The notes under the pieces: generated by a model | Seen by the model: only the letters and a program-made list of their open reading frames with translations | What the model was told of the DNA's origin: nothing | Database searches by the model: none | Made by a program: the position numbers and the translations under genes | Shown here: piece after piece, positions 9,350 through 57,959 of the stretch | Layout: the number at the start of each line of letters is the position of its first letter | Position numbering within the stretch: position 1 is the first letter of the stretch | From: Mobula hypostoma | Taxonomy: Eukaryota | DNA length: 64,000 nucleotides | Assembly (NCBI RefSeq): GCF_963921235.1 | Contig: NC_086107.1 | Span: 98,644,001-98,708,000, forward strand | Direction: 5' to 3'

Positions 9350-9903
9350 GGATGCTATGCACAAATCTGATTTGATGGAGGCAGATGTGAGAAGCACGGA
9401 AGAACATCTGGAGAAACTTCTGAAATGCCCGGTTTGCTGCCACTGCTACTGTGCAATCGAGAATCTCCAGAAGGAAGGCACCAAAATCCTCGGATTTGCC
9501 TGCTGCTGGCGACCAGGGCTGTGGTCAAAGCACTCGGCAGGGATGGTGCTCGTTGTCGGAAGGCTGGTCAGAGGCTTGAAGTTTTCGGACGACTCAGAGT
9601 CGGACTGTGGTCGGGCATAGCAGGGAGAGTTTTCTTCCTTCTCCCGTCTGCGTGAGATGTGGGACTTTCGAGAGACTTTGAACTTTTTTTTACCGCGCCC
9701 ATGGCCTGTTCTTCATCAAGCTATGGTATTGCTTGCACTGTTGTAACTATATGTTATAATTATGTGTTTTTTGTCAGTTTTTCAGTCTTGGTCTGTCCTG
9801 TGTTTCTGTGATATCACACCAGAGGAATATTGTAACATTTCTTAATGCATGCATTACTAAATGACAATAAAAGAGGACTGCGTGTCCTCATAATCTAATC
9901 TAA
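9350..9903 (+). mobile_element. Non-coding LINE-dependent repeat, copy 1
   Basis: 9357-9555 is the reverse-complement match of 17905-18100; ends in ...GACAATAAAAG... plus a (TAATC)n tail. Confidence 0.65.
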
Positions 9904-9904
9904 G

Positions 9905-10157
9905 ATACAGTGCAGAATAGGCCCTTCCAGTCCTCAAACCACGCCGCCCAGCAATTTCCCGATCTAATGTCAGGTTCATCACGGGACAATTTACAATGAC
10001 CAATTAACCTACCAAGCAGCACGCTTTTAAACTGTGGGAGGAGACCACGTGATCACGGGGAGAACGTACAAACTTCTTACAGGCAGCGGCGGGAATTGAA
10101 CCCGGGTCGCCCGCACTGTAAAGCATTGTGCTAACCACTACGCTACCGTGCCGTCCC
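9905..10157 (-). mobile_element. HE1/V-SINE-type tRNA-derived SINE
   Basis: tRNA-like head (GGTAGCGTAGTGGTTAGC...GGTTCAATTCCC on the minus strand) and a V-domain-like core; same family as 16723-17000. Confidence 0.8.
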
Positions 10158-13363: not shown

Positions 13364-15208
13364 TTCATCACCATCATCATCATCATCATCATCAGGTGCC
13401 GTGCCCAGTTTGAGCTTTGACTGCCGTGGCCCACACACTCCTGTTTTGGGTCAAGTGGATCAATTCATTGGTATTCATTCCCAGTTCTCTGGCTGCTGTC
13501 TCCATCATCATTTGTCTTTGTCTTCCTCTTGCTTTCTTCCCTTCAATCTTTCCCATAATTACCATGCATTCTAACTCCTCTGTCCTAATCACATGTCCAA
13601 TGAAGTCACGTTGCCTTTTCATGATCTCATACATTATTTCTCTTTTTGTGTTTGCTCCTTATTGACATCCTCGTTAGATATTCATTTCGTCCATGATATT
13701 CTTTGCTTCCTCCTCAAAAACCACATTTCTGCTGCTTCAATTCGATTCCTCATGTTACTAGATATTGTCCAACATTCTGAGCCATATAACATAACTGGAT
13801 AAACGTAACATTTCAGTACTCTGAGACGGGTTGTCATGCCTAGTTTAGTATTGGTCAGTATACTCTTCATTATCGTAAAGGTGTCTTTTGCCATCCCTAT
13901 TCTTCTTTTGATGTCCATGTCGCACCTGCCATCTGATGTCACCCAGCTTCCTAAGCAGCAAAAGTTCTGTACTTGTTTTATGTCTTCCCCGTTTATTCTC
14001 AGCCTGCAGATAGGATTCTCCTTCTTTTTGGATATCACCATACATTCTGTCTTTTTGCAATTGATAGATAGACCCATTTTTGCACTTTCTTCAACAATTG
14101 TATCAATTAAATTTTGTAGTTCTTCCTTCGTACTTGCAATTAACACAGTGTCATCTGCATATCTGAAATTATTGAAGTTTTCACTGCCAACTTTGATTCC
14201 CAAGATGTCTCTTATTTTTTGTAATATTGTTTCACTGTACGCATTAAATAAATCAGGGAAGAAAACACACCCTTGTCTAACGCCTCTCTTGATTTTTATA
14301 AACTAACTGACTTCTCCATCTATTCTTACAGCGGCAGTTTGTTCCCAATACAGATTTCTGATTAGGTGGAGGTCTTTCGAATCTAGATCTAAAGTTTTCC
14401 GTAATATTTCAAATAACTTTTATGTAGTGGATAAAACAAACAAACAAATCTTTTTGCACTTGAATAGCTCATTCTGATAGTATCCTTAACATCAATATTG
14501 CATTTTTTGTATCTTTGTCTTTCACAAAACCACATTGTTCTTTACCCATTTCAGCTTGTATCTTACTTTTAGCTCTTGTCATCAAAATTCTTAGAAGTAT
14601 CTTGGTGATATGACTCGTTAAACTTATGGGCCTATGTAATCCACATTCTATTGCTCCAGGTTTCTTAAGAAGAATGATAAACACTGATTTTTTCATCTCT
14701 TCTGATATTATTCCAGTCTCATAAATGTCATTGATTAAATCAGTAAGTTTTTCAATTCCATAATCTTCAAGGGCGATAATTTGTTCTATTACTAATTCAT
14801 CAGGACCTGCTGCCTTTCCTTTCTTCATCTTATATATTGCATTACGAACTTCAGATTTTAAAATACTTGGACCTTCAATCTTTTTCTTAGTTTCTGGTTT
14901 TTCACCTCAGTCATCTTCAAACAATTCCTGAATATACTCAGTCCATCTGTTCATAATCTCATCTTTTTCCATGATAGTGGTACTGTCCTTTGCTTTCAAA
15001 CATCCACCTGAAGAACAGAGGAGCTTTTTACCAATGATAGTCTTGATTTGTTGATGTAACCTTTTTGGATCAGTAATAGGGATTCTTTCTATTTGCTCAC
15101 ATTCCTGGTTTAACTATTCTTCTTTGGCTTTTTGACATAAGTTTTTAACTTTTTTATCTAAGGACTTACATTCTATAGGATTTGCTTTCTTCTGTCTCCT
15201 TTCTTTCT
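13364..15208 (-). mobile_element. 5'-truncated RTE-clade LINE, relatively young
   Basis: GKAAGPDE...RPISLTSHITK...EQCGF, NNFRYADD, YGSECWT, GKIEGKKARGRQR; (GAT)n tail; 10-bp TSD ATATACATCT (13354-13363, 15209-15218). Confidence 0.9.
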
Positions 15209-27045: not shown

Positions 27046-29289
27046 ACCAAGCAGGTGCCATAAAGGCATCAAATTCGAGCAAAACAAAGCAAATATTAGT
27101 TTGAACAGTTCTGCTCATGCCTCAAATCTATTTTGAAAGAAGTGCTCTTCGGACTAATCAAGCAATAGCCTGATATAGCTGTACGTGTGGTCAACACACC
27201 TGGCTCCACCATCTCAGTGTCCAGTGAGCCAGAGCAATAGAAAGTGTTGGTATCTGTTGGAATGCTGTTGAATATTGTGTTATCGTATTGTGTTTTGCCG
27301 GTATGACTGAAGGAAAAGCATTAACTAGCTGAAGATTGCTGCGGCTAGGACACTACCCAGGGGAACTGCAGAGGTATCCTGTGGCTGAGATGATTGTCCT
27401 CCGACACCACAACTATCTTCCTCTGGGCTGAATATGATTCCGTTGTAAGGTGAACAAAGTCACCAGAGAGATATAGAAGTGTTTTATTCAACAAAAACAA
27501 GCACCAGGCATCCTATTGAGACCATCTTGGAGGAAGAGGCCTCCCTGACTGAATATTACATGACATTTGTGTATGCTAAGAATCAAAGACAAGCCAATTC
27601 TATAGTTACAAAGTGTCTACAATGCTTCCTTTGAATTACATGTAGTTTTCACACACGACTTTCTTCGTACCCACACTCCAGACACCCAGAATGAATGCTA
27701 ATCAGCATTGTCTGGTTTGCAATCAACTCCAGTCTACAGCTCCAGGAAAACTTGTTCAGGGCTGCATTTTAAATTCAACCTACAATCCATGTTCATGTCT
27801 AAAGGTTGTTTGCAGGTGAAATTAATATTTGCTATATACTTAACTTCAGAATATGCCATGATAATTTCACCAGCAGAAGATTCCTTGCCCACCCTGCCAA
27901 TTCCCATTGACTCCAGTTTAACTGGGTCTCCGTGATACAATACTCAATCAAATGCTGATTTGACATTGAGGGCAGTTGCTCTTTGTTCACCTCTGAAGTT
28001 CGGCTCTTTAGCCCATGTTTTTGACTAAGGTCAGGAGTTGACTGACTACGGCAGAGTCTGAACTGAGCGCTTGTGTGCAGGTTATTGCTGAGCGAGTGCC
28101 TCGTGACAGCTCTGTTGACTGTGCCTTCCATCTGCCGATGGTTGAGAGTAGACTAACGGGGCAGCATCCCACCAGGTTTTATGAAAAGTGACTTCAGAGA
28201 GTGGATTTGTTGGTTATGACCTTCCAAAAGTATCCAGATTCTGGAAAAGTTCCAGTACATAATAAAACAATGGATGTCTCTCTTTGAAAACAAGGAAAGA
28301 CACAAGTGGAAGCTATGGGATAATAGGGAAGATTGTGGAATCTGTTACTGAGAAAGTGACAACATGAAACTTAGGAAGATATGGTACAGCAGGGTAGTCA
28401 CTGTGGAAATGGTATTCAACAAATTGATCAGAGCACGTTGAAGATGCAGTTTTTTTAAGCGTGTTGTACCAGACATTCAGCCATTCTTGCCTGGCACGTG
28501 GTGTCAGGATTAACTGGGTCACGTTATGAATGTTTCTGACTCGACCCTTGTATTTTTTACGAGGCCATGTGGCTAGCTCGACACTCAACCCGGCACGGAT
28601 GGAAAGCGTGCTCGGGAGTGGCCCGACCTGGATTCGAACTCGGAAGCCTTCGCTCTGGAGTCCGGCACTGATCTCACTGCATCCATTAAGAAGATGCAGT
28701 GAGCAGCATCCATTAAGAATGACCAGTAAATGTAGTATACTTGGATTTCCAAAAGGCTTGTAATTCGGTGCCACGTAGCTGAGATTGGGAGCAGAATTAG
28801 GCCATTTGGCCCATCGAGTCTGCTCTGCTATTAGGCAAAATAAGTATAGTGTTCTCGTGCAGTGTGTTGAAACTCTGACTAAACACCAAGTTAAACCGGA
28901 GCCAATGAAGCCAGAGTCGTAGTAAGGTTAACCATTTACTGTTCACTCTTCTACATTAACATCATATGGGGAAAAGGTGTTGCTTCTATAACGTTTCTTT
29001 GTGGGTAGACACGGAGCTCTTCAGGATCATGCTGCACGACTTCTCCGAACCAGAGGTTACACATAAGACGCGGCGAAACCGGAGGTGACATCATCACATG
29101 CCGCGATATACCGTAGACAATGAATTTACCTTTGTTATACTGTAACTTAATTATCAACCTTTAACTTTAACTAGAAAATAGTTACAAACAACCATTTAAA
29201 GCACACACCCAACAAAGTCAGATAAATGCCTTAAGGGCAACACAATGAGAACTCATAATATGAAGCAATATTAGTATGGATAGAGTATT

Positions 29290-29640
29290 ATTATATGCTG
29301 TTGGTGTTCATGGTCTTTTGACCACGATTGTTCTTGGCAAATTCCTCTCCAGAAATGGTTTGCCATTGCCGCCTTCTGGGCAGTGTCTTTACAAGATGGC
29401 TGACCCCAGCCATCGTCGATACTGTTCAGAGATTGTCTGCCTGGTGTCAGTGGTCGCACAACCAAGAGTTGTGATATACACTGGCTCCTCATACGACCAT
29501 CCGCCACCAGCTCCCATGGCTTCACGTGACCCTGATCGCGGGGATGGGGGTTAAGGGTGACCTGCAGGCCAGCGGAGGGAAGGAGTGCCTTATAGCTCCT
29601 TTGGCAGAGATGCATGCCCAGCCCGCCACCCGATGGATAG
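29290..29640 (-). mobile_element. RTE-tailed SINE-like element
   Basis: The minus strand has AGAAGGCGGCAATGGCAAACCA, resembling the BovB/RTE-associated SINE motif. Confidence 0.5.
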
Positions 29641-29911
29641 AGCACTGATGAAGTAGATGTTGATGTGGATCATTTTCAAGTTCATTTCGATGGGTTTTCG
29701 CTATCACTTCATTTGTGCTTTTTTTCAAGAAGGGTGGCAAGGTTCCAGCTGGAGTTGTGCAAATACAGAGAAATTCTCTCTTTTTTATAAGAAGCCACAG
29801 AATAAATTGATGAAAACAACAGGAATTCTGCAGATGCTGGAAATTCAAGCAACATACATCAAAGTTGCTGGTGAACGCAGCAGGCCAGGCAGCATCTATA
29901 GGAAGAGGTGC

Positions 29912-29947
29912 AGTCGACGTTTCAGGCCGAGACCCTTCGTCAGGACT
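29912..29947 (-). ncRNA. Minimal type I hammerhead ribozyme motif
   Basis: The minus strand reads AGUC-CUGACGA-AGG(GUCUCGG)CCU-GAAA-CG-UC-GACU: intact core, stem I AGUC/GACU. Confidence 0.7.
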
Positions 29948-30019
29948 AACTGAAGGAAGAGTGAGTAAGAGATTTGAAAGCTCCAGCTTTCAAATCCCTT
30001 ACTCACTCTTCCTTCAGTT

Positions 30020-30055
30020 AGTCCTGACGAAGGGTCTCGGCCTGAAACGTCGACT
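30020..30055 (+). ncRNA. Minimal type I hammerhead ribozyme motif
   Basis: AGUC-CUGACGA-AGG(GUCUCGG)CCU-GAAA-CG-UC-GACU; palindromic ACGU in place of stem III; GUC cleavage triplet at 30049-30051. Confidence 0.7.
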
Positions 30056-30810
30056 GCGCCTCTTCCTATAGAATAAATTGATGAAAAAGGTTTTGTGGAT
30101 TAAAAATGAGTTTTGTGCAGCTGGGGTTAAGTTCAATTTCAAGTTTGCTATCATTCCAGCTGTATACCCCAAACAAAATAATGTACAATGCAATACGCAT
30201 AACTCACACACAACACATAAAGTAGCTTTACCACGAATAATTTAACAAATAAGATGGTGCATTTACTACACAAGTTAAAAAATAAAACAGTATGACGTTT
30301 CTGCCACCTCATCCGTGGTGAGACCTGGGTGGTGGCAGGCAGTTCAATAGTTCTACGTGTGGGGATGGAGAAGCTGTTTGTCATCCTAACAGTTCTAGTC
30401 CCAATGCAAATACTGATTCTCCTTGGGGAAGAGGAAGTTGACAGAAGTTTGTGTGAAGTATATTTTAAATTTTGAAATGTTTAGTTGAAGTATTTTTTTT
30501 AAAAGTTGTGCCATAACCTCTTACTCATACCCATGCCTCAGCTAATGAAAGCAAATACTTCATGCTCGGCCTTCACACTCTTAACTCCTTTGTTTCTTCA
30601 TCTCATGTTCTCGATATTTATTGCTTATCATTATTATTTGCTTTTCATTTTGCATTTACACAGTCTGTATTTTGCACATTGGTTGTTTGTCTTAGGTGCA
30701 GTCTTTCATCGATTCCATTGTGCTTCTTTGTGTTTGCTGTGAATGCCAGCACAAAAATGAATCTCGGGGTTAGAATATGGTGACATATATGTAATTTGAA
30801 AATAAGACGA

Positions 30811-31442
30811 CACGGTTGGGTAATGGTTAGCACAACGCTTTGGATGAAAGACGAACGTCTGCCGAAACAAATCTTCTACTCCCAGCTTAAAGAAGGCAAA
30901 CGTAAAAGAGGCGGACAACAGAAGAGATTCAAAGACGTCTTAAAAGCCAACATGAAGAAATGTAACATCAACATCAACAATTGGGAAACCAATGCCAAGG
31001 ACAGGAAACTGTGGCAAGCCATCATCCGAGAAGGAACAGCAACTTTCGAAGCCAACAGATGTGCAGAATTAGAAGAAACGAGAAGAAAATGGAAAGAGAG
31101 GCAGCAACAACCGAAGTCCGATCTGCCATCTGGAACTACCTGTCCTGAATGCGGAAGAACTTTCAAAGCCAAGATTGGACTCATAAGCCACTTTACTGTA
31201 CCAGCGATAGGTTAAATTCCCTTCGCTGCCTGTGAGCAGTTTGTACATTCTCCCTGTGACCATGTGGGTTTCCTCCAGATGCTCTGGTTTCCTCCCACAG
31301 TCCAAAGACGTACTGATTAGTAGGCTAATTGGACATTGTAGATTGCCCCGCGGTTAGGCTAGAGTTAAATCAGGGTTGCTGGGCAGTGAGGCTCAAAGGG
31401 CTGGGAGGGCCTATTTTACATTGCATCTTAATAATTAAATAA
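30811..31442 (+). mobile_element. HE1/V-SINE-type SINE interrupted by an RTE fragment
   Basis: Head GGTAATGGTTAGCACAACGCTTT resumes as TTTACTGTACCAGCGA at ~31192; V-domain core at 31262-31310. Confidence 0.75.
30841..31190 (+). mobile_element. RTE LINE ORF2 C-terminal fragment
   Basis: RLPKQIFYSQLKEGKRKRGGQQKRFKDVLK...WETNAKDRKLW...CPECGRTFKAKIGLISH (C-terminal zinc finger). Confidence 0.85.
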
Positions 31443-31498
31443 TTTCTTTGAACTTTTGAGCTTTGAACCTTTATTGCCACCTTTTGGGAATCTCTGTA

Positions 31499-31847
31499 CG
31501 ATCGGCTCTCCATATCCGCAGGAGTTTGGTTCCGGGACCCCCCCCCCTCCGTGGATACCAATTTCCGCGGATGCTCAAGTCCCCTATGTAAAATGGCGTA
31601 GTATTTGTATATAACCTACACACATCCTTCCGTATACTTTAAATCGTCTCTAAATTACTTATAATACCTAATACGATGTAAATGCTATGTAAGTAGTTGT
31701 TATACTGTATTGTTTAGGGAATAATGACAAGAAGAAAAAGTCTGTACATGTTCAAACAGCGAGTGCTGGCAAGAGAACTTCCGGGTTGTTTTTTTTTCCG
31801 ATCCCGATCCGCAGTTGGTTGAATCCGCGGATACGGAGGGCCGACTT
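31499..31847. mobile_element. MER2-like Tigger (pogo superfamily) MITE
   Basis: TIRs CGATCGGCTCTCCATATCCGC / GCGGATACGGAGGGCCGACTT, TA flanks at 31497-98 and 31848-49; the internal sequence matches my recollection of mammalian MER2. Confidence 0.85.
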
Positions 31848-32459
31848 TATATAGAGGTCCCTGTTTCCCAGTACTCTCCAGGACACGTCCTACCTTTGTT
31901 TGTTCCATCAAAGTGCCTCAACCATTCGGTTCCAACTAATCACCACAATAACACAATGTCTGCTTTAATCATTTTGCACTGAATAAGCTTATTGTTGAAA
32001 TTGTGTGAAATTTGTTTTTCTTGTGAATGCTGCTTATCTGATGCAATGTGCCAGTGATGGGGCTGCTGTGAATCTGCCAACCACTGCAGCTGTGCACACT
32101 TACTTCAGCATTTGATAATAAGCTCAACTTTGACTGTACGTTTGTTTGGGTTGAATTCCACAATTAACTTCAGGTTTAAATTTCAACGAAGCTTGCAAAG
32201 GTCAGTGGGCAAGGAAGGGGAAACGGGGGCACCTGATCTGAGATTTTTGCAGTGCTTCTAAATCAAAGCTTGCGTTGAGGGGCAGATAGCTAATCTCCTA
32301 CTTGCCCCCAAGCAATGGGTGCGGGTTTTAAGAACCGGTGCTCTCAAAGAACGGAGCTTGCACTTGCGGGGGGGGGGGCGGGGCGGGGGATGGGAAGAGA
32401 GACTGCGTTTCCAAAGCACGTTCGTTCATTCTGGACCAAAAGGTTTTGCAATGGCGGGG

Positions 32460-32698
32460 AATATTCCCACAATGAGGTGACTCACAAGATCATCTGATTT
32501 TTGGGATGCTCGGTCAAGGGTTAAAAATTGGCCGGAGCGCCAGGGAGAATATCCCTGCCCTTCATTGAAAATTTCCATTCAGGTCTTCTACCTGAGAAAG
32601 AAGATTCACCCTTGTCCTCATGTCTCAATGAAAAAACAGCAGTAGTCTTTCTGTACTGCATAGAAGCGTCAGCTTAGAATTTATTGCTTAAGTCTCTG
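32460..32698 (-). mobile_element. Ancient DeuSINE (SacSINE1-like) relic
   Basis: AATTGGCCGGAGCGCCAGGGAGAATATCCCTGCCCTTC...GTACTGCATAGAAGCGTCAGCTTAGAATTTATTGCTTAAGTCTCTG resembles the recalled Deu-domain shark SINE consensus; a further fragment lies at ~39688-39765. Confidence 0.55.
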
Positions 32699-32784
32699 TA
32701 ATGATTTAATTGCACTGCAAATTGACTCCAAGGTGAAAATGCTACCCACTGTAATACCAGGCATAACATTTCTTAAACATGACA

Positions 32785-33385
32785 GTCTGGAAATCCAAAG
32801 CAACACACACAAAATGCTGGAGGAACTCAGCAGGTCAGGCAGTATCCATGGAATTAGCAAACAGTCGACATTTTGGGCCAAGATCCTTCTTCAGGACTGA
32901 GAAGGAAGGGGGAAGACGCAGGAATATGAAGGTGGGGTTTGGGGAGGGAGGCTTGCTAGAAAGTGATGGGTAAAGCCAGGTGGGTGGGAAACGTCAAGGG
33001 CTGGAGAAGAAATCTGATGACAGAGGAGAATGGACAATAGGAGAAAGGGGAGGAGGAGACACTCCACAGAGAGTTGATAGGCAGGTGTGAAGAGGTAAAA
33101 GGCCAGAGTGGGGAATAGAAGAAGAGAGGAGGGAATTTTTTTTAACCAGAAGGGAAAATTGATATTCATGCCATCGAGTTGGAGGCTACCCAGATGGAAT
33201 ATAAGGTGTTTCTCCTCCACCCTGAAGGTAGCCTCATCTTGACACAAGAGGAGGTGTCTTGCCCCTTCCTTCCTTCTCAGTCCTGAAGAAGGGTCTCGGC
33301 TGGAAACATCGACTGTTCACATTTCCACAGATGCTGCCTGACCTGCTGAATCCCTCCTGCATTTTATGTGTGTTGCTTTGGGTTT
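32785..33385 (-). mobile_element. Truncated Penelope-like element: GIY-YIG C-terminus between inverted pseudo-LTR segments
   Basis: ORF 32891-33247 begins CQDEATFRVEEKHLIFHLGSLQLDGMNINF; terminal segments 32785-32910 and 33265-33385 are inverted, each with a degenerate hammerhead. Confidence 0.8.
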
Positions 33386-33849
33386 CTTAAAATCAACTCT
33401 CGATCTCTCTGCCTCCTGTAAGATTCGCAAGGTGAGGCAAGGGCAGGGTGAATTGAGGCATGAAATTCTGTAAAAGGATGTGATAGAATCGATTCCAAGA
33501 AGATACTTCCTCTTGGGGCAGTAATGAAAAACAAACAACAGCCTATTCAATGAGGAAGGAGATGAGCAAGCACCTTTCTCAGACAATGGACAGTGAATCC
33601 TCTGTTGCAGATGCTTGGAGATCACTTGGGACGCATGAGCCTGAGGATGATAAGGTTGTTTTAAGAGAAGGTGTCCATGGCATGGAGTAAAATCAGAGAA
33701 TTCTAAGTGAAGGGTGTTAATGTAAGACTTGTTTTGCTTTAAGTCTATCAAATCTTATTTTGTTTTTTAAGAGGGAGGGAAGACATTTTGGTCATGGATG
33801 TGTGATAGCTAGCTCCTCCCAGTTGTGTGTTGGGACCTTTATCATCTGA

Positions 33850-34100
33850 TATACAGTGCAGAACAGGCCCTCCCGAGTCGCGGCACCCAGCAATTCTCCG
33901 ATTTAATCCTACCCTAATTGTGGGGCAGTTTACAATGACCAGTTAGCCTATCAACCGGTACGTCTGGACTGTGGGAGGAAACTGGAGCACCCGGAGGAAA
34001 CCCACGCAGTCACAGGGAGAACGTACAGGCAATGGTGGGAATTGAACGCGAGTCACTGGTACTGTAAAGCATTGTGCTAACTAGTTCTACCCTGCTGCCC
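33850..34100 (-). mobile_element. HE1/V-SINE-type SINE
   Basis: Reverse-complement V-domain GGACTGTGGGAGGAAACTGGAGCACCCGGAGGAAACCCAC and a tRNA head. Confidence 0.8.
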
Positions 34101-34339
34101 CAATTTGTTCAGAAGAGACTGAGTGGGCCAAAGAAACCCACCTCTACATATCAGTCACGTCATGAGTTTCTCTTGTCTTCATTAATGGAGAGCCTGGTGT
34201 TTTTTCTCTTCATTACAACTGAAGCATTGAGACCAAATGCAGTTCCCCAGCTACCCCACTGGGCTCTGGGGATTTAAAATGGTGCTGTTCCCTGCACAGT
34301 AGAGAAACTGTCTTATTGCTGACATACGGGTGTTGGTGT

Positions 34340-35530
34340 TGGATCAAATCTGCAGCACGTTTGCAGGAGAAGCAGAGGAGCAATAAACAGAACAAAACAC
34401 TTCTGTTTTGCTGCCTTCCATACAGTTCATTCTATATAAGGGACATTTAAGTTCTACAAAGAGGAAAACAATAACAGAATGCAGAATATACGTAGTTGCA
34501 GATACACAGTAAATGCAGTGTAGGTGGACAACTAAGATGTCAGGGCCACGATGAGTTAATTGAGAGATGAAAAGTTCATCCGTATCATGTGAAATATGTT
34601 CAAAAGCCTTATTATAGCAGGATGGAAATTCCCTCGAGCTGGGTGGTGGTGTGTTTTCAACGTTTTGTATCTTCTGACCAATGGAAAGCGAGGTGAGTAA
34701 CTGAGGTGGGAAGGGACTTTGGTCATGTGAGTTGCTTTTCCGAAGTGTGGAGAGGAGCCTGGTTCTCATGATGGATTGCACAGTGCCCACAACTCTGCCA
34801 TCCCTTGTGCTTTTGAGGCAGAGCTGTTACCATTCCGAGCTGTATCCAGGTGGGATACTTTTAATGGTGTATCTATAAACATTGGTGAGAGTGAACAGGG
34901 ACATGGTGATATTGATGACCTTGGCAACTTGATGCTCCCACTCATCTCCATCTCAGCACCATCGATGCAGATGGTGTATACTCCACTTGCTTCCCGAAAT
35001 GAATGGCCAGCTCTGTTCTATTTCTAACATTGAGGGAAGAGTTCTTCTCAACATCCTGCTACTGGAAGATGTATCTGCTTCTTGTACTCCATCTCTTTGT
35101 TGTTTGAGATCCAGCCCACAACAGTAGTGTCATCTACAAACTTGTAGATTGAGTTAGAGCAGAATTTGGCCATGCAGTGGCAGGAGAATAGGGAGTCAAG
35201 TGGTGAGGACATAGACCTGTGGAGCATCATGATGGAAGTGTTGCTGCCTGTCCTTGCCGTGATCTTTGGTCAGGAAGTGAAGGAACCAGGTATGGAGAAC
35301 TGTGCCAAGCCCCAGCTGTAGGAGTTTAGAGGCAAAGTTGTCTAGAATTATGGTATTGAAGGTCAAACTAGAATTAGGAGTCTAATGTAAGTGTCTTTGT
35401 CATCCAGACGTTCCAGAGATAAGTGTAGGGCCACGGAGGTGACATCTGCCAAGGGTCTGTCCCAGCAGTAGAGTTCGAGAGCAGTCACCAGTCTTTCAGA
35501 GCATTTCATGATGGTAAAGGCTAAAGTAAA
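34340..35530 (-). mobile_element. Decayed Rex1/Babar-type LINE with RT motifs
   Basis: SIYKFVDDTTVVG, IMKCSERLV, KDTYIRLL peptides. Confidence 0.7.
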
Positions 35531-35872: not shown

Positions 35873-37222
35873 CAGTGCCTATAAAATGTATTCATCCCCC
35901 TTGGAAGTTTTCACGTTTTATTGTTTTACAACACTGAATCATAGTGAATTTAATTTGGCTTTTTTTTGACACTGATCAAAAGAAAAAGACCCCCTCGTGT
36001 CAAAGTGAAAATGTCTCTACAAGGTGATCTACATTAATTACAAAGATAAATCGCAAAATAATTGATTGTGTAAGTATTCACCCCCTTTAATATGATGCAC
36101 CATATCATCACTGGTGTAGCCAATTGGTTTTAGAAGTCACATAATTAGTTAAATGGAGATCACCTGTGTGCAATCGAGTGTGTCAATTGATTGTAGTAAA
36201 AATAGCCTGTATCTGGAAAGTCCAACTGCTGGTGAGTCAGTATCCTGGAAAAACCCACACCATGAAGACAAAAGAACACTCCAACCAAACTCCGCGAAAC
36301 AGCTATTGAAAAGTATTAGTCGCAGTCTTATGGGAGAGTGACAAAGAGAAAGCCACTTGGGAAAAAAATTCATGTGAAATCTCGGCTACAGTTTACCAGA
36401 AGGTATGTGGGAGACTCTGAAGTCAGCTGGAAGAAGGCTCTATGGTCTAATGAAACCAAAATTGAGATTTCTGGCCATCAGGCTAAACACTGTGTTTGGC
36501 ATGATCAGAAACACACCATCCCTATTGTGAAGCATGGTGGCGGCTGCATCATGCTGTGGGGACGCTTCACTGCAGCAGGCCCTGGAAGGCTTGTGAAGGT
36601 AGAGGGTAAAATGTATGCAGCAAAATACAGGGAAATCCTGGAGGAAAATTTGGTGCAGTTCTGCAAGAGAACTGCGACTTGAGAGAAGATTTGTTTTCCG
36701 GCAAGACAACGATCCCAAGCATAAAGCCAAAGCTACACTGGAATGGCTTAAAAGTAACAAAGCTAATGTCCTGGAGTGGCCAAGTCAGAGTCCAAACCTC
36801 AAACCAACTGAGAATTTCTGGCTGGACTTGAAAAGGGCTGTTCACTCTTGACCCCCATGCAATCTGACAGAGTTTGCGCAGTTTTGTAAAGCAGAATGGG
36901 GAAAAATTGATGAGTCTAGGTGTCCAAAGCTGATTAAGACCTATCCACACAAACTCCAGGCTGTAATTGCCACCAAAGGTGCATCTTCTAAATACTGACT
37001 TGAAGGAGGTGAATACTTGTGCAATCAATTATTTTGTGTTTTATATTTGTAATTAATTTAGATCATTTCATAGAGATCTGTTTTCACATTGACACGAAGG
37101 AGTCTTTTTCTGTTGATCTGTGTCAAAAAAGCCAAATTAAATCCACTCAGATTCAAACATGAAGACTTGAAAACTTCTGGGACAGGAAGGAGGAGTGGGG
37201 TGAATTCTTTTTATAGACACTA
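35873..37222 (+). mobile_element. Tc1-family DNA transposon (IR/DR type), internally deleted, inactive
   Basis: TA-CAGTG...CACTA-TA ends with long TIRs and an inner repeat GTATTCACCCCCTT; transposase motifs [42 protein letters not shown]; frameshift near 36650. Confidence 0.92.
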
Positions 37223-41635: not shown

Positions 41636-43168
41636 ATGAAGATGCGGCGCCGCCGCATGGTCTTAATGCTGTGTATGGCAGGACTGTGCCTGATCTCCTT
41701 CCTGCACTTCCGCAAGGCCCTGTCCTACATCACGTTCTCCCGCGAGCTCTCTGTCTTCAGCCCTTCCCTCAGGTCCATGTTCGTCGACTCTCACCTCTTT
41801 TGGAAGCAGAACGAGGAGGAGGAGGATGCGAGTGCCAGTCTGGGTCTCCAGACGGCGCCCGGTGCTCACCAGGCAGGCTGGCCACATCTCCACCGAGCCC
41901 AGTTCCATCTGAAAGATGACGAGACAGAGTACTTCATACGGACCAAGGCGGGAGCCATTTGCTTCAAGCAGGGAACCAAAACGGAGAGCAGGATGGTGGG
42001 TTCGATGGAGGGAGCCAATCCCTGGGGCCACGGTTCCGTGGACAAGGCACTGACTCGTGAAGCAGGTGGCAGTGGGAGGCTGAGGCGTAGGTGGGTTGGG
42101 TGCCCTTGTCTCCCGGGCTGGCATGGGCCCTACTGTGGAGTGCCCACCATGGTCCAGTATTCCAACTTGCCCACGAAAGAGCGCCTCACCCCGCGGGCTA
42201 CGTCTCGCAGGGTCATCAACGCCATCAACATCAACCACGAGTTTGATCTGCTGGACGTCCGGTTCCATGAGCTGGGAAATGTAGTTGATGTGTTCATCAT
42301 CTGCGAATCCAACTTCACCGCCTTTGGAGACCCCAAACCACTGAAGTTCATTGAGATGCTCCTGAATGGGAGCTACAGCTACATAGCTCACAAGATCCTG
42401 TATGTGTTCCTGGACCACTTCCCCAGCGGAGGCAGGCAGGATGGCTGGATTGCTGACGACTACCTGCGGACCTTTCTCAGCCAGAACGGGATGAGCCGAA
42501 TCACCCAGCTCCGCGACGACGACATCTTCCTCATCAACGACGCCGATGAGATCCCGGCCCGCGACGGAGTTCTCTTCCTTAAACTCTTCGATGGGTGGAC
42601 GGAGCCTTTCGCCTTCCACCTTCGCAAGTCTCTCTATGGCTTTTTCTGGAAGCAGCCGGGGAGCCTGGAGGTGGTGTCGGGCTGCTCTGTGGCCATGCTG
42701 TTCATGGTGTACAACGGAGACGGCATCAAGCTGCGGCGGAGAGAGTACTACCTGATGCCAAACTTCCGGCAATACGAGAACAGCACCGGGCACATCCTGG
42801 TGCCGTGGTCGCTGGGAAGCGCACTTCACTTCGCCGGCTGGCACTGCTCCTGGTGCTTCAGGCCAGAGGGGATCCGTTACAAACTGCTGTCGGCCCAGAA
42901 TGGCGACTTCCCCCGCTGGGGGAACTACCAGGAGAAAAGGGATCTGAACTACATCCAGGAGCTGATCCAGACTGGGGGCTGGTTTGACGGTACTGAGCAG
43001 GAGTATCCGCCTGCGGACCCCAAAGAGCACATGTACGCCCCCAAGTATCTGCTGCAAAACTTTGAGAGGTACAAGTACATGTTGGAGAACCCGTACCGAA
43101 AGCAGAGCTGGGACCGGGGGCTGGGGAGAGCTGCTGAAATGTACAATCAGAGTGGGAAGATTACATAA
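41636..43168 (+). CDS. MGAT3: Beta-1,4-mannosyl-glycoprotein 4-beta-N-acetylglucosaminyltransferase (GnT-III, GT17), 510 aa, single coding exon
   Basis: MKMRRRRMVLMLCMAGLCLISFLHF type II anchor; EYFIRTKAG, CLPGWHGPYCGVPT, RRVINAININHEFDLLDVRFHEL, DADEIPARDGVLFLKL (DxD), AGWHCSWCF and SAQNGDFPRWG match vertebrate MGAT3. Confidence 0.98.
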   Translation: MKMRRRRMVLMLCMAGLCLISFLHFRKALSYITFSRELSVFSPSLRSMFVDSHLFWKQNEEEEDASASLGLQTAPGAHQAGWPHLHRAQFHLKDDETEYFIRTKAGAICFKQGTKTESRMVGSMEGANPWGHGSVDKALTREAGGSGRLRRRWVGCPCLPGWHGPYCGVPTMVQYSNLPTKERLTPRATSRRVINAININHEFDLLDVRFHELGNVVDVFIICESNFTAFGDPKPLKFIEMLLNGSYSYIAHKILYVFLDHFPSGGRQDGWIADDYLRTFLSQNGMSRITQLRDDDIFLINDADEIPARDGVLFLKLFDGWTEPFAFHLRKSLYGFFWKQPGSLEVVSGCSVAMLFMVYNGDGIKLRRREYYLMPNFRQYENSTGHILVPWSLGSALHFAGWHCSWCFRPEGIRYKLLSAQNGDFPRWGNYQEKRDLNYIQELIQTGGWFDGTEQEYPPADPKEHMYAPKYLLQNFERYKYMLENPYRKQSWDRGLGRAAEMYNQSGKIT

Positions 43169-52737: not shown

Positions 52738-55352
52738 TAACATAGAACATAGGACATAGAACAGTACAGCACAGTACAGGCCCTTCGGCCCACAATGTTG
52801 TGCCGACCCTCAAACCCTGCCTGCCATATAAGCCCCCACCTTAGATTCCTCCATATACCTGTCCAGTAGTCTCTTAAACTTCACGAGTGTATCTGCCTCC
52901 ACCACTGACTAAGGCAGTGCATTCCACGCACCAACCACTCTGAGTAAAAAACCTTCCCCTAATATCCCCCTTGAACTTCCCACCCTTTACCTTAAAGCCA
53001 TGTCCTCTTGTATTGAGCAGTGGTGCCCTGGGGAAGAGGCGCTGGCTATCCACTCTATCTATTCCTCTTATTATCTTGTACACCTCTATCATGTCTCCTC
53101 TCATCCTCCTTCTCTCCAAAGAGTAAAGCCCCAGCTCCCTTAATCTCTGATCATAATGCATACTTTCTAAACCAGGCAGCATCCTGGTAAATCTCCTCTG
53201 TACCCTTTCCAATGCTTCCACATCCTTCCTATAGTGAGGTGACCAGAACTGGACACAGTACTCCAAGTGTGGCCTAACCAGAGTTCTATAGAGCTGCATC
53301 ATTACATCGCGACTCAAACTCTATCCCTCGACTTATGAAAGCTAACACCCCATAAGCTTTCTTAACTACCCTATCCACCTGTGAGGCAACTTTCAGGGAT
53401 CTGTGGACATGTACCCCGAGATCCCTCCGCTCCTCCACACTACCAAGTATCCTGCCATTTACTTTGTACTCTGCCTTGGAGTTTGTCCTTCCAAAGTGTA
53501 CCACCTCACACTTCTCTGGGTTGAACTCCATCTGCCACTTCTCAGCCCACTTCTGCATCCTATCAATGTCTCTCTGCAATCTTTGACAGTCTTCTACACT
53601 ATCTACAACACCACCAACCTTTGTGTCATCTGCAAACTTGCCAACCCACCCTTCTACCCCCACATCCAGGTCGTTAATAAAAATCACAAAAAGTAGAGGT
53701 TCCAGAACAGATCCTTGTGGGACACCACTAGTCACAATCCTCCAATCTGAATGTACTCCCTCCACCACCACCCTCTGCCTTCTGCAGGCAAGCCAATTCT
53801 GAATCCACCTGGCCAAACTTCCCTGGATCCCATGCCTTCTAACTTTCTGAATAAGCCTACCGTGTGGAACCTTGTCAAATGCCTTACTAAAATCCATATA
53901 GATCACATCCACTGCACTACCCTCATCTATATGCCTGGTCACCTCCTCAAAGAACTCTATCAGGCTTGTTAGACACGATCTGCCCTTCACAAAGCCATGC
54001 TGACTGTCCCTGATCAGACCATGATTCTCTAAATGCCTATAGATCCTATCTCTAAGAATCTTTTCCAACAGCTTTCCCACCACAGATGTAAGGCTCACTG
54101 GTCTAGAATTACCAGGACTATCCCTACTACCTTTTTTGAACAAGGGAACAACATTCGCCTCCCTCCAATCCTCCGGTACCATTCCTGTGGATAATGAGGA
54201 CATAAAGATCCTAGCCAGAGGCTCAGCAATCTCTTTCTTCACCTCGTGGAGCAGCCTGGGGAATATTCCGTCAGGCCCTGGGGACTTATCCGTCCTAATG
54301 TATTTTAACAACTCCAACACCTCCTCTCCCTTAATATGAACATGCTCCAGAACATCAACCTCACTCATATTGTCCTCACCATCATCAAGTTCCCTCTCAT
54401 TGGTGAATACCGAAGAGAAGTATTCATTGAGGACCTCGCTCACTTCCACAGCCTCCAGGCTCATCTTCCCACCTTTATCTCTAATCGGTCCTACCTTCAC
54501 TCCTGTCATCCTTTTTTTCTTCACATAATTGAAGAATGCCTTGGGGTTTTCCTTTACCCTACTCGCCAAGGCCTTCTCATGCCCCCTTCTTGCTCTTCTC
54601 AGCCCCTTCTTAAGCTCCTTTCTTGCTTCCCTATATTCCTCAATAGACCCATCTGATCCTTGCTTCCTAAACCTCATGTATGCTGCCTTCTTCCACCTGA
54701 CTAGATTTTCCACCTCACTTGTCACCCATGGTTCCTTCACCCTACCATTCTTTATCTTCCTCACCGGGACAAATCTATCCCTAACATCCTGTAAGAGATC
54801 TCTAAACATCAATCATATTCCATAGTACATTTCCCTGCAAAAACATCATCCCAATTCACGCCCGCAAGTTCTAGCCTTATAGCCTCATAATTTGCCTTTC
54901 CCCAATTAAAAATTTTCCTGTCCTCTTTGATTCTATCCTTTTCCATGATAATTATAAAGGCCAGGGAGCAGTGGTCACTGTCCCCCAGATGCTCACCCAC
55001 TGAGAGATCTGTGACCTGACCCGGTTCATTACCTAGTACTAGATCTAGTATGGCATTCCCCCTGGTCGGCCTGTCCACCTACTGTGACAGGAACCCATCC
55101 TGGATACACTTAACAAATTCTGCCCCATCTAAACCCTTGGAACTAATCAGGTGCCAATCAATATTAGGGAAGTTAAAGTCACCCATGATAACAACCCTGT
55201 TATTTTTGCACTTTTCCAAAATCTGCCTCCCAATCTGCTCCCCTGTATCTCTGCTGCTACCAGGGGGCCTATAGAATACCCCCAGTAGAGTAACTGCTCC
55301 CTTCCTGTTCCTGACTTCCACCCATATGGACTCATAAGAGGATCCTGCTAAC
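52738..55352 (-). mobile_element. Young 5'-truncated CR1 LINE (end of APE, RT, tail)
   Basis: 508-aa ORF 53286-54812 with KSPGPDG, QHGF, MDFSKAFDKVPH, GVPQGSVL, KFADD; adjacent frames give MGDFNFP, LDLVL, SDH and RPHLEYCVQFW; (AACATAG)n tail; only a few frameshifts/stops. Confidence 0.95.
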
Positions 55353-56150
55353 AAACAGGATGCTAACGATCAATGACATAATGAGTTGAATGAACTGAAC
55401 TGATTAACTAAAACGGAGACTGGTGTAGAAGGAATCAAAATGGGCAAAGGACAAACTAAAATATGTGGGTGTGCCAGATGTGGTAATTTAACCTTCAAAT
55501 CATTTCTTATCCCATAGGAAGAGTGAGCGTAGCAACGAGACAGAAGGTGGGCATCCTGCATCAGCACGGTCTCTCCCAAACAGAAATTTCAAGATGTGCA
55601 GCCCATGCTCCTCCTGAAGAAGCACCAAGAAACCGAGGACCAGGAACGCAGTGGCCGGCCACGGAAACCGAGTGCAACAGGCGGGCGAGATGTCCCTTCT
55701 AAATCGGAAAAAGACCAGCACTGCCACCAGCTCTGAACTGACAGAGACCATTGGAGCCCAAGGACACCCCTCCACAGTCGGAGGTCTTGTCAGAAGTGGT
55801 CTTCATGGAAGAGTTGCTACCAGCAGAAACAAAGCCAAGAGGCTCACCTACGCACAAAAGCACAAGGACTGGAATGCTGAACAATGACAGCAGGCGCTCC
55901 GGACTGACGAGACAAAAATTTGAAAACTTTGGCTCAGACGGAAGGCAGTTTGCCCGTAGAAGAGCTGGCGAGCGCGACGCGGGTGAGTTGTCTGCAGCCA
56001 ACCGTGAGGCCCAGCGGAGGCTCCCTGCAAGTCTGGGGCTGCATTTCTGTGAATGAGTTGCTGATCTGCTCAGAATTAATGGAATCCTCGCTGCCGAGAC
56101 GTATGAGCACATTATCATCCATCACGCAATAATCATCGGCCCCAACTTCA
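55353..56150 (+). mobile_element. Tc1-like transposase fragment (5' end probably at ~52340-52700)
   Basis: LVRSGLHGRVA...KRLTYAQKHKDWNAEQ, TDETK, GGSLQVWGCIS motifs; frameshifted. Confidence 0.75.
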
Positions 56151-57550
56151 CTCGTCTGCCCCAGAGCAGACTTAACCCTGTTGGCGATAGCCTTGGACAG
56201 GATCTTGTAATTCACATTCAGGAGAGAGATGGGTCTCCAATTTCTAATGTCCTCCCTTTCCCCCTTCTGCTTGTAGATGAGGGTGATGATGCCCTTCCTC
56301 ATGGACTCAGACATACTGCCGGCCAGAAGCATAGCATTGTACACTTCCAGCAGGTCTGGGCCCATCCAGTTCCACAGAGCCGAGTACAACTCAGCCGGTA
56401 AGCCGTCGCTTCCGGGAGTCCTACCCGACCCAAAGGAACGGATGGAGCCTGTCAGCTCGTCCAGGGTCAGTGGCTGATCCAGACTCTCCCGCTTGCCGTC
56501 GTCTAAGACCTGCGTGATAGACGACAGGAAGTTGCGGGAGGCTGTGGATTCTGTGGCCTTTTCGTCGTACAGACCGGCATAGAAGGACTTGCAGATCCTC
56601 AGTATGTCGGTCTGCGAGGACGCGACTGAGCCGTCCTCTTCCTTAAGGTTGTAGATCACAGAGCTCCCCCTGTGCACCTTTTGGAAGAAGAAGCGTGAGC
56701 ACGTCTCGTCCTGCTCCACGATTTGGACCCTTGATCGGAAGATGATCTTGGAAGATTCGGCGGCGAGGTTATGGGCTTGCCGGCCCTTCACCTCTCGCAA
56801 TTCCTCCCTGACATCCACCCCCTTCGACTGCAGAAGGAGAAGTTGCTGCAACTCTGTCTGGAGTTTACGCAGTTCCCTCTGCTCCTGCCTTGCCTTCTGG
56901 ATACCCTTGCGGATGAAGAACCTCTTAATGTTCTCCTTGGTGGCTTCCCACCAGTGAACCGGGGAATCGAAGAAGGCTTTCAAGGTTCTCCAACCTGTGT
57001 ACTCCCTCTCTAGTTCCTCGATGTTCTCTGGGGTCAACAGCTTTACATTCAGCTTCCACGTCCCCCTGCCTGCCTTCTGGTCCTCCCGTAAAAGACAGGT
57101 GGCTCTCAGAAGGCAGTGGTCAGAGAAGAACACCGGCGTGACGTCGGTGGACCTGACCGTGAGGGACTCTGACAGGAAGAGGAAGTCGATCCGGGAGCGG
57201 GCTGAGCCGTCCGACCGTGTCCAGGTGGCTTGCGGCTGTGCTCCACCTGTGGGGGTGCCAAAGGCGTCGCGCAGCTTGGCCGTCTTTACTATTTCCTTCA
57301 GGAGTCTGGAGGTACTGTCCAGCCTGCCGTCGGCGCTGCCGGGTCCTCCAGCCGCATCAATGGTGCAGTTGAAGTCTCCGGCCAGAACGACCGGCTGGGA
57401 CGTCACCAGCAGCGGTGGGAGCCGCTCGCTCCGCACGGGGGAGGCGTACACGTTGATTCGCCGGCATTTTCCGTCCACCACTAGGAGGTGACCCCCAATG
57501 AGCTCTTTGACTTGGGTGATTGAGAAGTTGCCTCCCCGTGGCAGAGCGGC
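56151..57550 (-). mobile_element. Tx1-clade LINE ORF2 (APE endonuclease, linker, RT N-terminus)
   Basis: INVYASP, LAGDFNC, RIDFLF, FSDHC, WKLN, TPGSDGLPAELY, NWRPISLLNVNYKILSKAIANRVK; open for ~440 codons. Confidence 0.9.
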
Positions 57551-57959
57551 TGCCGCCCGTCTCTGTTGAGAGTCATCGTTGACACCCCCCTGTACTCACC
57601 CCGATGCTTCAGTCTGCCTCGCCGCTTCCAGATGGAGTCGTTCATGACCCAGCGCCTCAGCTATGGTCTTTTCCCGAGTCAGCCTGTGATCTTGGACATT
57701 TCCGGACCCTGTCCCCGATCTCCGGACAGGGCATAGCGGTGGAGTCCTAAACTGTGCGCACGGGCTCTATCAGTTCCCGTAACAAAAAAAAAGAAAGAAC
57801 AAGCAGAAGGCGTGGAAAAGAAAGAGAAATAATTGGATAGATTTGCTATCTGATAGATGTCGCCCGAGGAATCGTTGTTCGCCTTCCTGGTCAGAAGTTT
57901 ATGTACTGCTCTATGTGACAATAATAAACTAATTTACCTGTGCTTTTTAAACACTTTTT

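What the first reader, a model, noticed from the sequence alone, without database searches (positions are those of the whole stretch)
31499..31847. MITE apparently near-identical to mammalian MER2 in a cartilaginous-fish-type genome: horizontal-transfer candidate
Seen: 349-bp element with TIRs and TA flanks. From memory of the eutherian MER2 (Tigger) consensus, its length, TIRs and non-coding interior (GGATGCTCAAGTCCC...AAAATGGCGTAGTATTTG...TACTTATAATACCTAATAC...GTATTGTTTAGGGAATAATGACAAG...GTCTGTACATGTTCA) match closely. Neutral non-coding DNA should not stay this alignable since the chondrichthyan-mammal split. Inference: horizontal transfer of the Tigger family, possibly with the MITE itself. 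The flanks are host-type repeats, which argues against contamination.
Basis: partly seen in the sequence, partly recalled or inferred. Interest (0 to 1): 0.7.

Follow-up and report, generated by a model that had tools for sequence, protein, structure and literature searches.

The report
Human-type MER2 mini-transposon in a ray
A short, dead, non-coding jumping element in a ray's genome is far more like a common human repeat than shared ancestry can explain, so this element family probably crossed between very distant animals, although the route and the donor are unknown.

Summary
The element is real: 349 bp, TA on both sides, 23-bp terminal inverted repeats (TIRs) matching 17/23, the only such case among 16,878 TA-bounded segments of the window. 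The host is a myliobatiform ray. A human copy printed in PMC6578592 aligns by hand at 222/283 columns (78%; interior 160/192, 83%). Human MER2 copies lie a median 18.5% from their consensus, so the ray interior should be close to that consensus. It equals the majority residue of 37 unnamed library copies at 39/46 translated columns. The neighbouring MGAT3 protein is only 63-67% identical to mammals. The ray copy keeps 20 CpGs against 3 in the human copy, which argues against contamination. 'Near-identical' overstates it: about 50 nt do not align, a 15-nt unit is missing and both TIR ends are damaged. Copy number, distribution, junction reads and the Dfam consensus were not tested. Horizontal transfer of this lineage is likely (0.85); whether the non-autonomous element itself moved is open. 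Tigger transfer between eutherians and sharks is already claimed (PMC9219625); none of 10 paper searches found MER2 in a ray.

The parts
31497..31498 (.). left TA target-site duplication
31499..31521 (+). left TIR, 23 bp; 17/23 complementary to the right TIR; terminal triplet reads CGA
31522..31551 (+). subterminal segment with a C run about 7 nt longer than in the human copy
   Evidence: hand alignment to the copy printed
31552..31754 (+). non-coding interior, colinear with the human MER2-type copy (160/192 columns, 83%); minus-strand translation equals the majority residue of 37 library copies at 39/46 columns of depth 10 or more
   Evidence: (hand count)
31755..31804 (+). junction zone, 50 nt; not alignable to the human copy apart from a short start and a T run; likely holds the internal-deletion breakpoint (inferred)
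   Evidence: hand comparison; library copies also vary here
31805..31824 (+). right subterminal segment, colinear with the human copy; the ray lacks a 15-nt unit that the human copy has near 31832
   Evidence: hand count 32/43 for 31805-31847
31825..31847 (-). right TIR, 23 bp; terminal base deviates from the CAG start of Tigger TIRs
   Evidence: Tigger TIR rows
31848..31849 (.). right TA target-site duplication
31499..31847 (+). whole element: non-autonomous Tigger/pogo-type MITE, 20 CpGs (observed/expected 1.18; window 0.44)

Best explanation
This is a genuine, now dead, non-autonomous Tigger (pogo superfamily) MITE of the MER2 lineage in a myliobatiform ray. It encodes no transposase. It was moved in trans by a pogo/Tigger DDE transposase that bound its 23-bp TIRs and inserted it at a TA site, which was duplicated (mechanism from established knowledge; the TIRs and TA pair are shown). 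It has since decayed at both TIR ends. Its non-coding interior is too close to the eutherian family for descent from the jawed-vertebrate ancestor, so this Tigger lineage reached the ray lineage and the eutherian lineage by at least one horizontal transfer, most simply around the time MER2 was active in early eutherians (inferred). Donor, direction and vector are unknown; both lineages may have received it from a third host.
For: Anatomy: (1 of 16,878 segments). Host: MGAT3 is 95% identical to Hypanus, 86% Leucoraja, 81% Chiloscyllium, 73% Callorhinchus and 63-67% to mammals over near-full length, with one partial Bos hit at 73% over 68% of the query. Human homologue: 222/283 columns by hand, interior 160/192; interior Jukes-Cantor distance 0.19 against 0.21 for the median human MER2 copy to its own consensus. 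MER2 consensus length is 345; the printed human copy is about 342 by my count. 37 of 38 library hits align in one frame; the ray equals the majority at 39/46 columns, 16/17 of them in columns outside the search query, and 3 of the 7 differences are CpG sites that the ray keeps intact. DNA transposons evolve neutrally within vertebrate genomes (PMC7070016). MER2 was active near the divergence of the eutherian orders sampled (PMC1914374). Against contamination: 20 CpGs against 3 (hand count), exact TA boundaries between ray repeats, and runs X1 and X2 hold 0.57 and 0.32 of its words, with X1 contigs identical to the unique right flank over 349 and 221 nt.
Against: No computed alignment to the Dfam/Repbase MER2 consensus; the DNA-level comparison is a hand count against one human copy, which the paper does not label MER2 (that label rests on length, TA ends and my recall). 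Library copies are unnamed and were selected for likeness to the ray query; in the 29 query columns the ray matches the majority no better than the median library copy (23/29, 0.79 for both). Only one copy is in hand: no genome is held, and PMC7070016 required five copies per clade to exclude contamination. X1 and X2 may be the sample behind the assembly. Distribution across jawed vertebrates was not surveyed. No autonomous partner was found. Protein identity of MGAT3 is a rough control, not a synonymous distance.
Confidence: 0.85

Rival explanations
1. Sub-case of transfer, parent only: an autonomous Tigger moved between lineages, and the ray MITE and mammalian MER2 arose as separate internal deletions of that parent.
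For: The 50-nt junction zone differs and a 15-nt subterminal unit is absent. Other transferred families made their MITEs locally, e.g. OC1 in the Tasmanian devil (PMC3621081) and Mariner-N1_CPe in bats (PMC3517439). PMC7070016 concludes that functional transposition proteins are needed to invade a genome. Library entries P0147 and P0154 share the left arm but carry another right-hand part, so several deletion products of one parent exist.
Against: Lengths nearly agree (349 against 345) and both arms stay colinear up to the same zone of at most 50 nt, so two independent deletions would have to fall in nearly the same place. Library copies also vary in this zone (P0001, P0129, P0139). No parent was found in two published Tigger tables.
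Confidence: 0.43
2. Vertical inheritance: an old Tigger MITE lineage persisted in both lineages since the jawed-vertebrate ancestor, with its interior held by selection, as claimed for conserved SINE domains.
For: Conserved non-coding domains in TEs exist (V domain in MER6, PMC6887750). The distribution was not surveyed here.
Against: Similarity spans about 260 nt of AT-rich interior, with 83% identity to an already decayed human copy, above the 63-67% protein identity of a conserved host gene. [quoted passage not shown] MER2 activity falls near the eutherian radiation.
Confidence: 0.06
3. Assembly contamination or chimera: a piece of mammalian DNA carrying MER2 was assembled into the ray contig.
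For: Single copy in the window; junction-spanning reads were not examined; the best-holding runs may be the assembly's own sample.
Against: Similarity starts and stops at the TA duplications, with ray repeats on both sides. The copy keeps 20 CpGs where the human copy keeps 3, and it has the intact CpG at sites where library copies are split between decay products. Its junction zone is unlike the human copy.
Confidence: 0.04
4. The likeness is chance, convergence, or limited to the TIRs of a common Tigger type.
For: Nematode Tigger TIRs match the right TIR at up to 19/23 (Trichuris suis row, hand count) without a visible interior match, so TIR likeness alone is cheap.
Against: The interior aligns better (83%) than the ends; 222/283 has a binomial probability near 1e-63 at 30% background, ignoring gap freedom; 37 library entries match the interior frame.
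Confidence: 0.01

Closest known systems
MER2 (human/eutherian non-autonomous Mariner/Tc1-class, Tigger-type element; Repbase list in PMC5753468)
   Same: Length 349 against 345, TA duplication, about 23-bp TIRs, colinear left 256 nt and right 43 nt with a human copy.
   Different: Host is a ray; about 50-nt junction zone unalignable; one 15-nt subterminal unit missing; longer C run; CpGs largely kept; both TIR ends damaged.
MER2B (336 bp) and other elements sharing the left arm
   Same: Library entries P0147 and P0154 share the left arm up to about 31700; calling them MER2B-like is recalled.
   Different: They diverge from the ray element before 31710, whereas the ray stays colinear with the MER2-type copy to 31754.
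Tigger family transfers claimed between Eutheria and Chondrichthyes (PMC9219625)
   Same: Same family, TA duplication, same two host classes.
   Different: Based on transposase coding sequence with a 70% identity floor, in two sharks; their TIRs start CAGTA and differ from this element; truncated and non-coding elements were left out.
OC1 and Mariner1_BT/Mariner-1_Tbel horizontal transfers into mammals (PMC3621081, PMC3517439)
   Same: DNA transposon families shared by distant animals at high identity, with local MITE derivatives.
   Different: Those cases rest on autonomous consensus sequences and many copies; here there is one non-autonomous copy and no known parent.
MER6 (PMC6887750)
   Same: Another human Tigger-type MITE whose parts trace to non-mammalian vertebrates.
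   Different: Only parts of MER6 match outside mammals (about 39% divergence to fish SINEs); here nearly the whole element matches.

Membership tests
Tigger/pogo-type MITE | TA target-site duplication | tested here: met
   TA at 31497-31498 and 31848-31849
Tigger/pogo-type MITE | short TIRs (8-33 bp in PMC9219625) | tested here: met
   23 bp, 17/23; 1 of 16,878 TA-bounded segments
Tigger/pogo-type MITE | TIR starts with CAG(T), as in most Tigger rows seen | tested here: inconclusive
   Left end reads CGA, right end AAG; each is one or two changes from CAG and they differ from each other, as expected from decay (rows)
Tigger/pogo-type MITE | short, no transposase coding capacity | tested here: met
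   349 bp; longest overlapping stop-to-stop frames 81-84 aa, running into flanks
Tigger/pogo-type MITE | many dispersed copies of uniform length | not testable with these tools
   No genome held; one copy in 64 kb
Tigger/pogo-type MITE | autonomous partner with the same ends and a DD29-36D transposase | tested here: inconclusive
   No matching ends plus interior in two published tables (long cells are cut at 400 characters); none seen among window ORFs (by eye)
MER2 | full-length alignment to the MER2 consensus (345 bp) at 80% or more | tested here: inconclusive
   Consensus not available. Proxy: 222/283 (78%) to one human copy by hand, 283 of 349 ray positions aligned; human copies lie a median 18.5% from consensus
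MER2 | same junction zone and right subterminal structure | tested here: not met
   31755-31804 unalignable and a 15-nt unit missing against the one human copy; so filed as a MER2-lineage relative, not as MER2 itself
Horizontal transposon transfer | TE divergence far below host neutral divergence | tested here: inconclusive
   Direction supports transfer (83% non-coding DNA against 63-67% MGAT3 protein), but no synonymous distances were computed
Horizontal transposon transfer | patchy taxonomic distribution | not testable with these tools
   No animal genome collection; library hits and runs are unnamed
Horizontal transposon transfer | contamination excluded (several copies, host flanks, junction reads) | tested here: inconclusive
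   Host flanks, TA boundaries and CpG retention met; copy number and junction reads not examined

The most novel reading that the evidence does not exclude
The non-autonomous element itself, not only its parent, travelled between hosts as distant as rays, eutherians and perhaps arthropods. MER2 would then be the mammalian branch of a cross-phylum MITE invasion from about the time of the eutherian radiation, and the CpG-rich ray copies would be close to the ancestral form of one of the common human repeats (8,377 annotated fragments).
Probability: 0.42. Interest if true: 0.7.

Novelty: new member of a known kind. Interest (0 to 1): 0.5.

Why it matters
Transfers involving mammals are rare in the largest vertebrate screen (24 of 975 events involve mammals or birds; PMC7070016), and that screen needed protein-coding regions, so purely non-coding MITEs were out of its reach. 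A ray relative of MER2 gives a handle on where a widespread human repeat came from, a place to look for its missing autonomous parent, and a direct test of whether non-autonomous elements cross between hosts or are remade in each. It changes no mechanism: Tigger transfer between these classes is already claimed in print.

Tried and rejected
Whole genome: none held. Rfam over 29000-34500: 0 of 8 matches lie on the element. Plasmid and phage blastn: no match. Motif scans: genome contigs 0 and 0; viral contigs 1, 0 and 3 loci; metagenome contigs 0 and 9 loci. All 13 loci match only the motif plus at most 3 bases and are chance hits. Word-index protein searches with the 53-aa frame: 1 weak hit among 2 candidates (P0001, E 0.4) and 0 of 5 among longer proteins. 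Cluster look-ups gave no organism for P0001 or for 20 of the 38 library hits submitted. P0146 was dropped before the majority count as an unrelated 546-aa protein. Pfam on 15 library proteins gave no match above cut-off, so the reading that some carry Alu- or Bov-tA-like tails stays recalled. On the flank, X3 has one contig at 34 differences over 293 nt (a related animal) and X4 has none, which proves no absence. Folding: not significant. PMC1832089 not held. PMC3014272 mentions only end-similarity of anole MITEs to marsupial Tiggers, PMC3525145 and PMC4678618 never name MER2. Earlier-findings look-ups by sequence, near place and the full word set were empty.

Full report
Observation. The element occupies 31499-31847 (349 bp) with TA on both sides. 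Its 23-bp ends are 17/23 complementary, and it is the only one of 16,878 TA-bounded 300-400-nt segments in the window to reach that score. The first three bases of the two ends differ from each other and from the CAG start seen in most Tigger TIR rows, so the copy is probably dead. It has 20 CpGs (observed/expected 1.18, against 0.44 for the window); only 1 of 183 tiles of 349 bp reaches that value. It is the only copy in the window, has no coding frame of note and no Rfam match.

Host. The ORF at 41636-43168 is MGAT3: 95% identical to Hypanus, 86% to Leucoraja, 81% to Chiloscyllium, 73% to Callorhinchus and 63-67% to near-full-length mammalian proteins (best 120 of 353 hits listed). The host is therefore a myliobatiform ray. 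An earlier AI note calls this genome a devil ray; I confirmed only the order. The left flank 31210-31440 and the right flank 32787-32916 are repeats with several copies in the window. Two runs of organism A carry contigs identical to the unique right flank (349 and 221 nt in X1, 372 nt in X14). X1 and X2 hold 0.57 and 0.32 of the element's 37 sampled words. These runs may be the assembly's own sample.

Likeness to the human repeat. No consensus library was available. A full-text search with six interior motifs found 1 paper. Its Table S2 prints a probe for the human lncRNA p4516 that contains a TA-flanked element of about 342 nt colinear with the ray element (PMC6578592, one passage seen). My hand alignment gives 190/240 matched columns over 31499-31754 (gaps of 7, 3, 3, 1 and 3 nt) and 32/43 over 31805-31847 (one 15-nt gap): 222/283, 78%. 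The interior 31552-31754 alone gives 160/192, 83%. Positions 31755-31804 do not align. The paper does not name the repeat. RepeatMasker rows in the supplement of PMC1914374 give MER2 a 345-bp consensus, 8,377 human fragments and a median divergence of 18.5%; the name MER2 rests on this length, the TA ends and my recall. The interior distance to that one human copy (Jukes-Cantor 0.19) is no larger than the median distance of human copies to their own consensus (0.21), so the ray interior should lie close to the consensus. This is an inference from one copy whose own divergence is unknown.

Second line. A phmmer search with the 55-codon minus-strand frame found 38 library entries at E up to 0.001; 37 are spurious translations of this repeat and 1 (P0146) was dropped. 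At columns with at least 10 copies the ray equals the majority residue at 39 of 46, including 16 of 17 columns outside the query. Three of the 7 differences are codons where the ray keeps a CpG; 6 of the 7 need one base change. That suggests roughly 90-95% DNA identity to the family's ancestor in this 138-nt stretch (inferred). Against this, the hits were chosen for likeness to the ray, and in the 29 query columns the ray fits the majority no better than the median copy (0.79 each). The entries are unnamed (20 of 38 looked up); two lie on contigs of 147 and 264 Mb, and some have tails that I recall as Alu- and Bov-tA-like, which Pfam did not confirm.

Mechanism. From established knowledge of pogo/Tigger elements (TA duplication, short TIRs, DDE transposase; PMC9219625 results and part of the discussion read; PMC7386202 passages), this is a non-autonomous deletion product that was moved in trans. 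The TA pair and TIRs are shown; the transposase is not. Searches of the supplements of both papers found no element with these ends and this interior (long cells are cut). The nearest TIR seen is a Trichuris suis Tigger at 19/23 by hand, with no visible interior match.

Why transfer. Non-coding DNA at 83% to a decayed human copy stands against 63-67% protein identity for a conserved neighbouring gene. DNA transposons evolve neutrally inside vertebrate genomes (PMC7070016, passages), and MER2 was active near the divergence of the eutherian orders sampled (PMC1914374, passages). The ray-mammal split is roughly 450 million years old (own knowledge), so vertical descent would leave the interior largely unalignable. 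Contamination fits badly: the likeness stops at the TA pair, the copy keeps 20 CpGs against 3 in the human copy, and its junction zone differs. What is missing is a copy count, junction-spanning reads, a synonymous-distance control and a distribution survey; PMC7070016 asked for five copies per clade, and I have one.

MITE or parent. The two arms stay colinear up to the same zone of at most 50 nt and the lengths nearly agree, which favours a shared deletion product. The different junction zone and the missing 15-nt unit, and precedents for local MITE formation after transfer (PMC3621081 and PMC3517439, passages), favour separate deletions. I put these at about even. Three earlier AI notes report decayed MER2-like copies in arthropod or other invertebrate genomes; I could not test them, but they make a third-party donor a live option.

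What is in print. PMC9219625 already claims Tigger transfer between a eutherian and two sharks from transposase sequences; their TIRs differ from this element. PMC6887750 (first part and passages) traces parts of MER6 to non-mammals. PMC5753468 (passages) lists MER2 under Mariner/Tc1 without a non-mammalian copy. Ten searches of the open library showed no report of MER2 in a cartilaginous fish; for I saw 25 of 144 listings, none with MER2 or transposon counts. Subscription papers, Repbase and Dfam annotations, and bioRxiv supplements could not be seen, and a ray family may already be filed there.

Verdict. Observation confirmed; interpretation partly supported. A MER2-lineage Tigger MITE in a ray, probably reflecting horizontal transfer (0.85). 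New member of a known kind; interest 0.5, or 0.7 if the MITE itself is shown to have crossed hosts (probability about 0.42).

Noticed in passing
window 30806-31440: A SINE-like repeat seems split by an inserted LINE 3' fragment: 30806-30841 and 31210-31440 both match the copy at 9901-10155, and the stretch between holds most of a 143-aa frame (30784-31215) that I recall as an RTE-clade C-terminus.
   Followed up: partly
window 29895-30072: An 88-nt inverted repeat, 98% complementary with a 2-nt loop, inside a repeat family common in the window; it gives only below-threshold microRNA matches in Rfam.
   Followed up: partly
window 41636-43168 (+): Intact 510-aa MGAT3 coding stretch, 95% identical to a Hypanus protein, about 10 kb from the element.
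   Followed up: yes
window 31990-32070: A fragment of a very high-copy repeat: well over a thousand contigs from each run of organism A and about a hundred from organism B land mostly here.
   Followed up: no
window 36320-37028: Frames that I recall as a broken Tc1-type transposase; an earlier AI note reports a Sleeping Beauty-type element elsewhere in this genome.
   Followed up: no
window 53286-54812 (-), 55934-57595 (-), 13682-14906 (-): Long reverse-transcriptase-like frames of 508 aa, 553 aa and 206+145 aa, recalled as CR1-, Tx1- and RTE-type LINEs.
   Followed up: no
window 31755-31804 against library entries P0147 and P0154: One minus-strand frame of the ray's unalignable zone shows two short residue pairs in the same order as the right-hand part of these entries; too short to test, but it may mark sequence from the right arm of a shared parent.
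   Followed up: no
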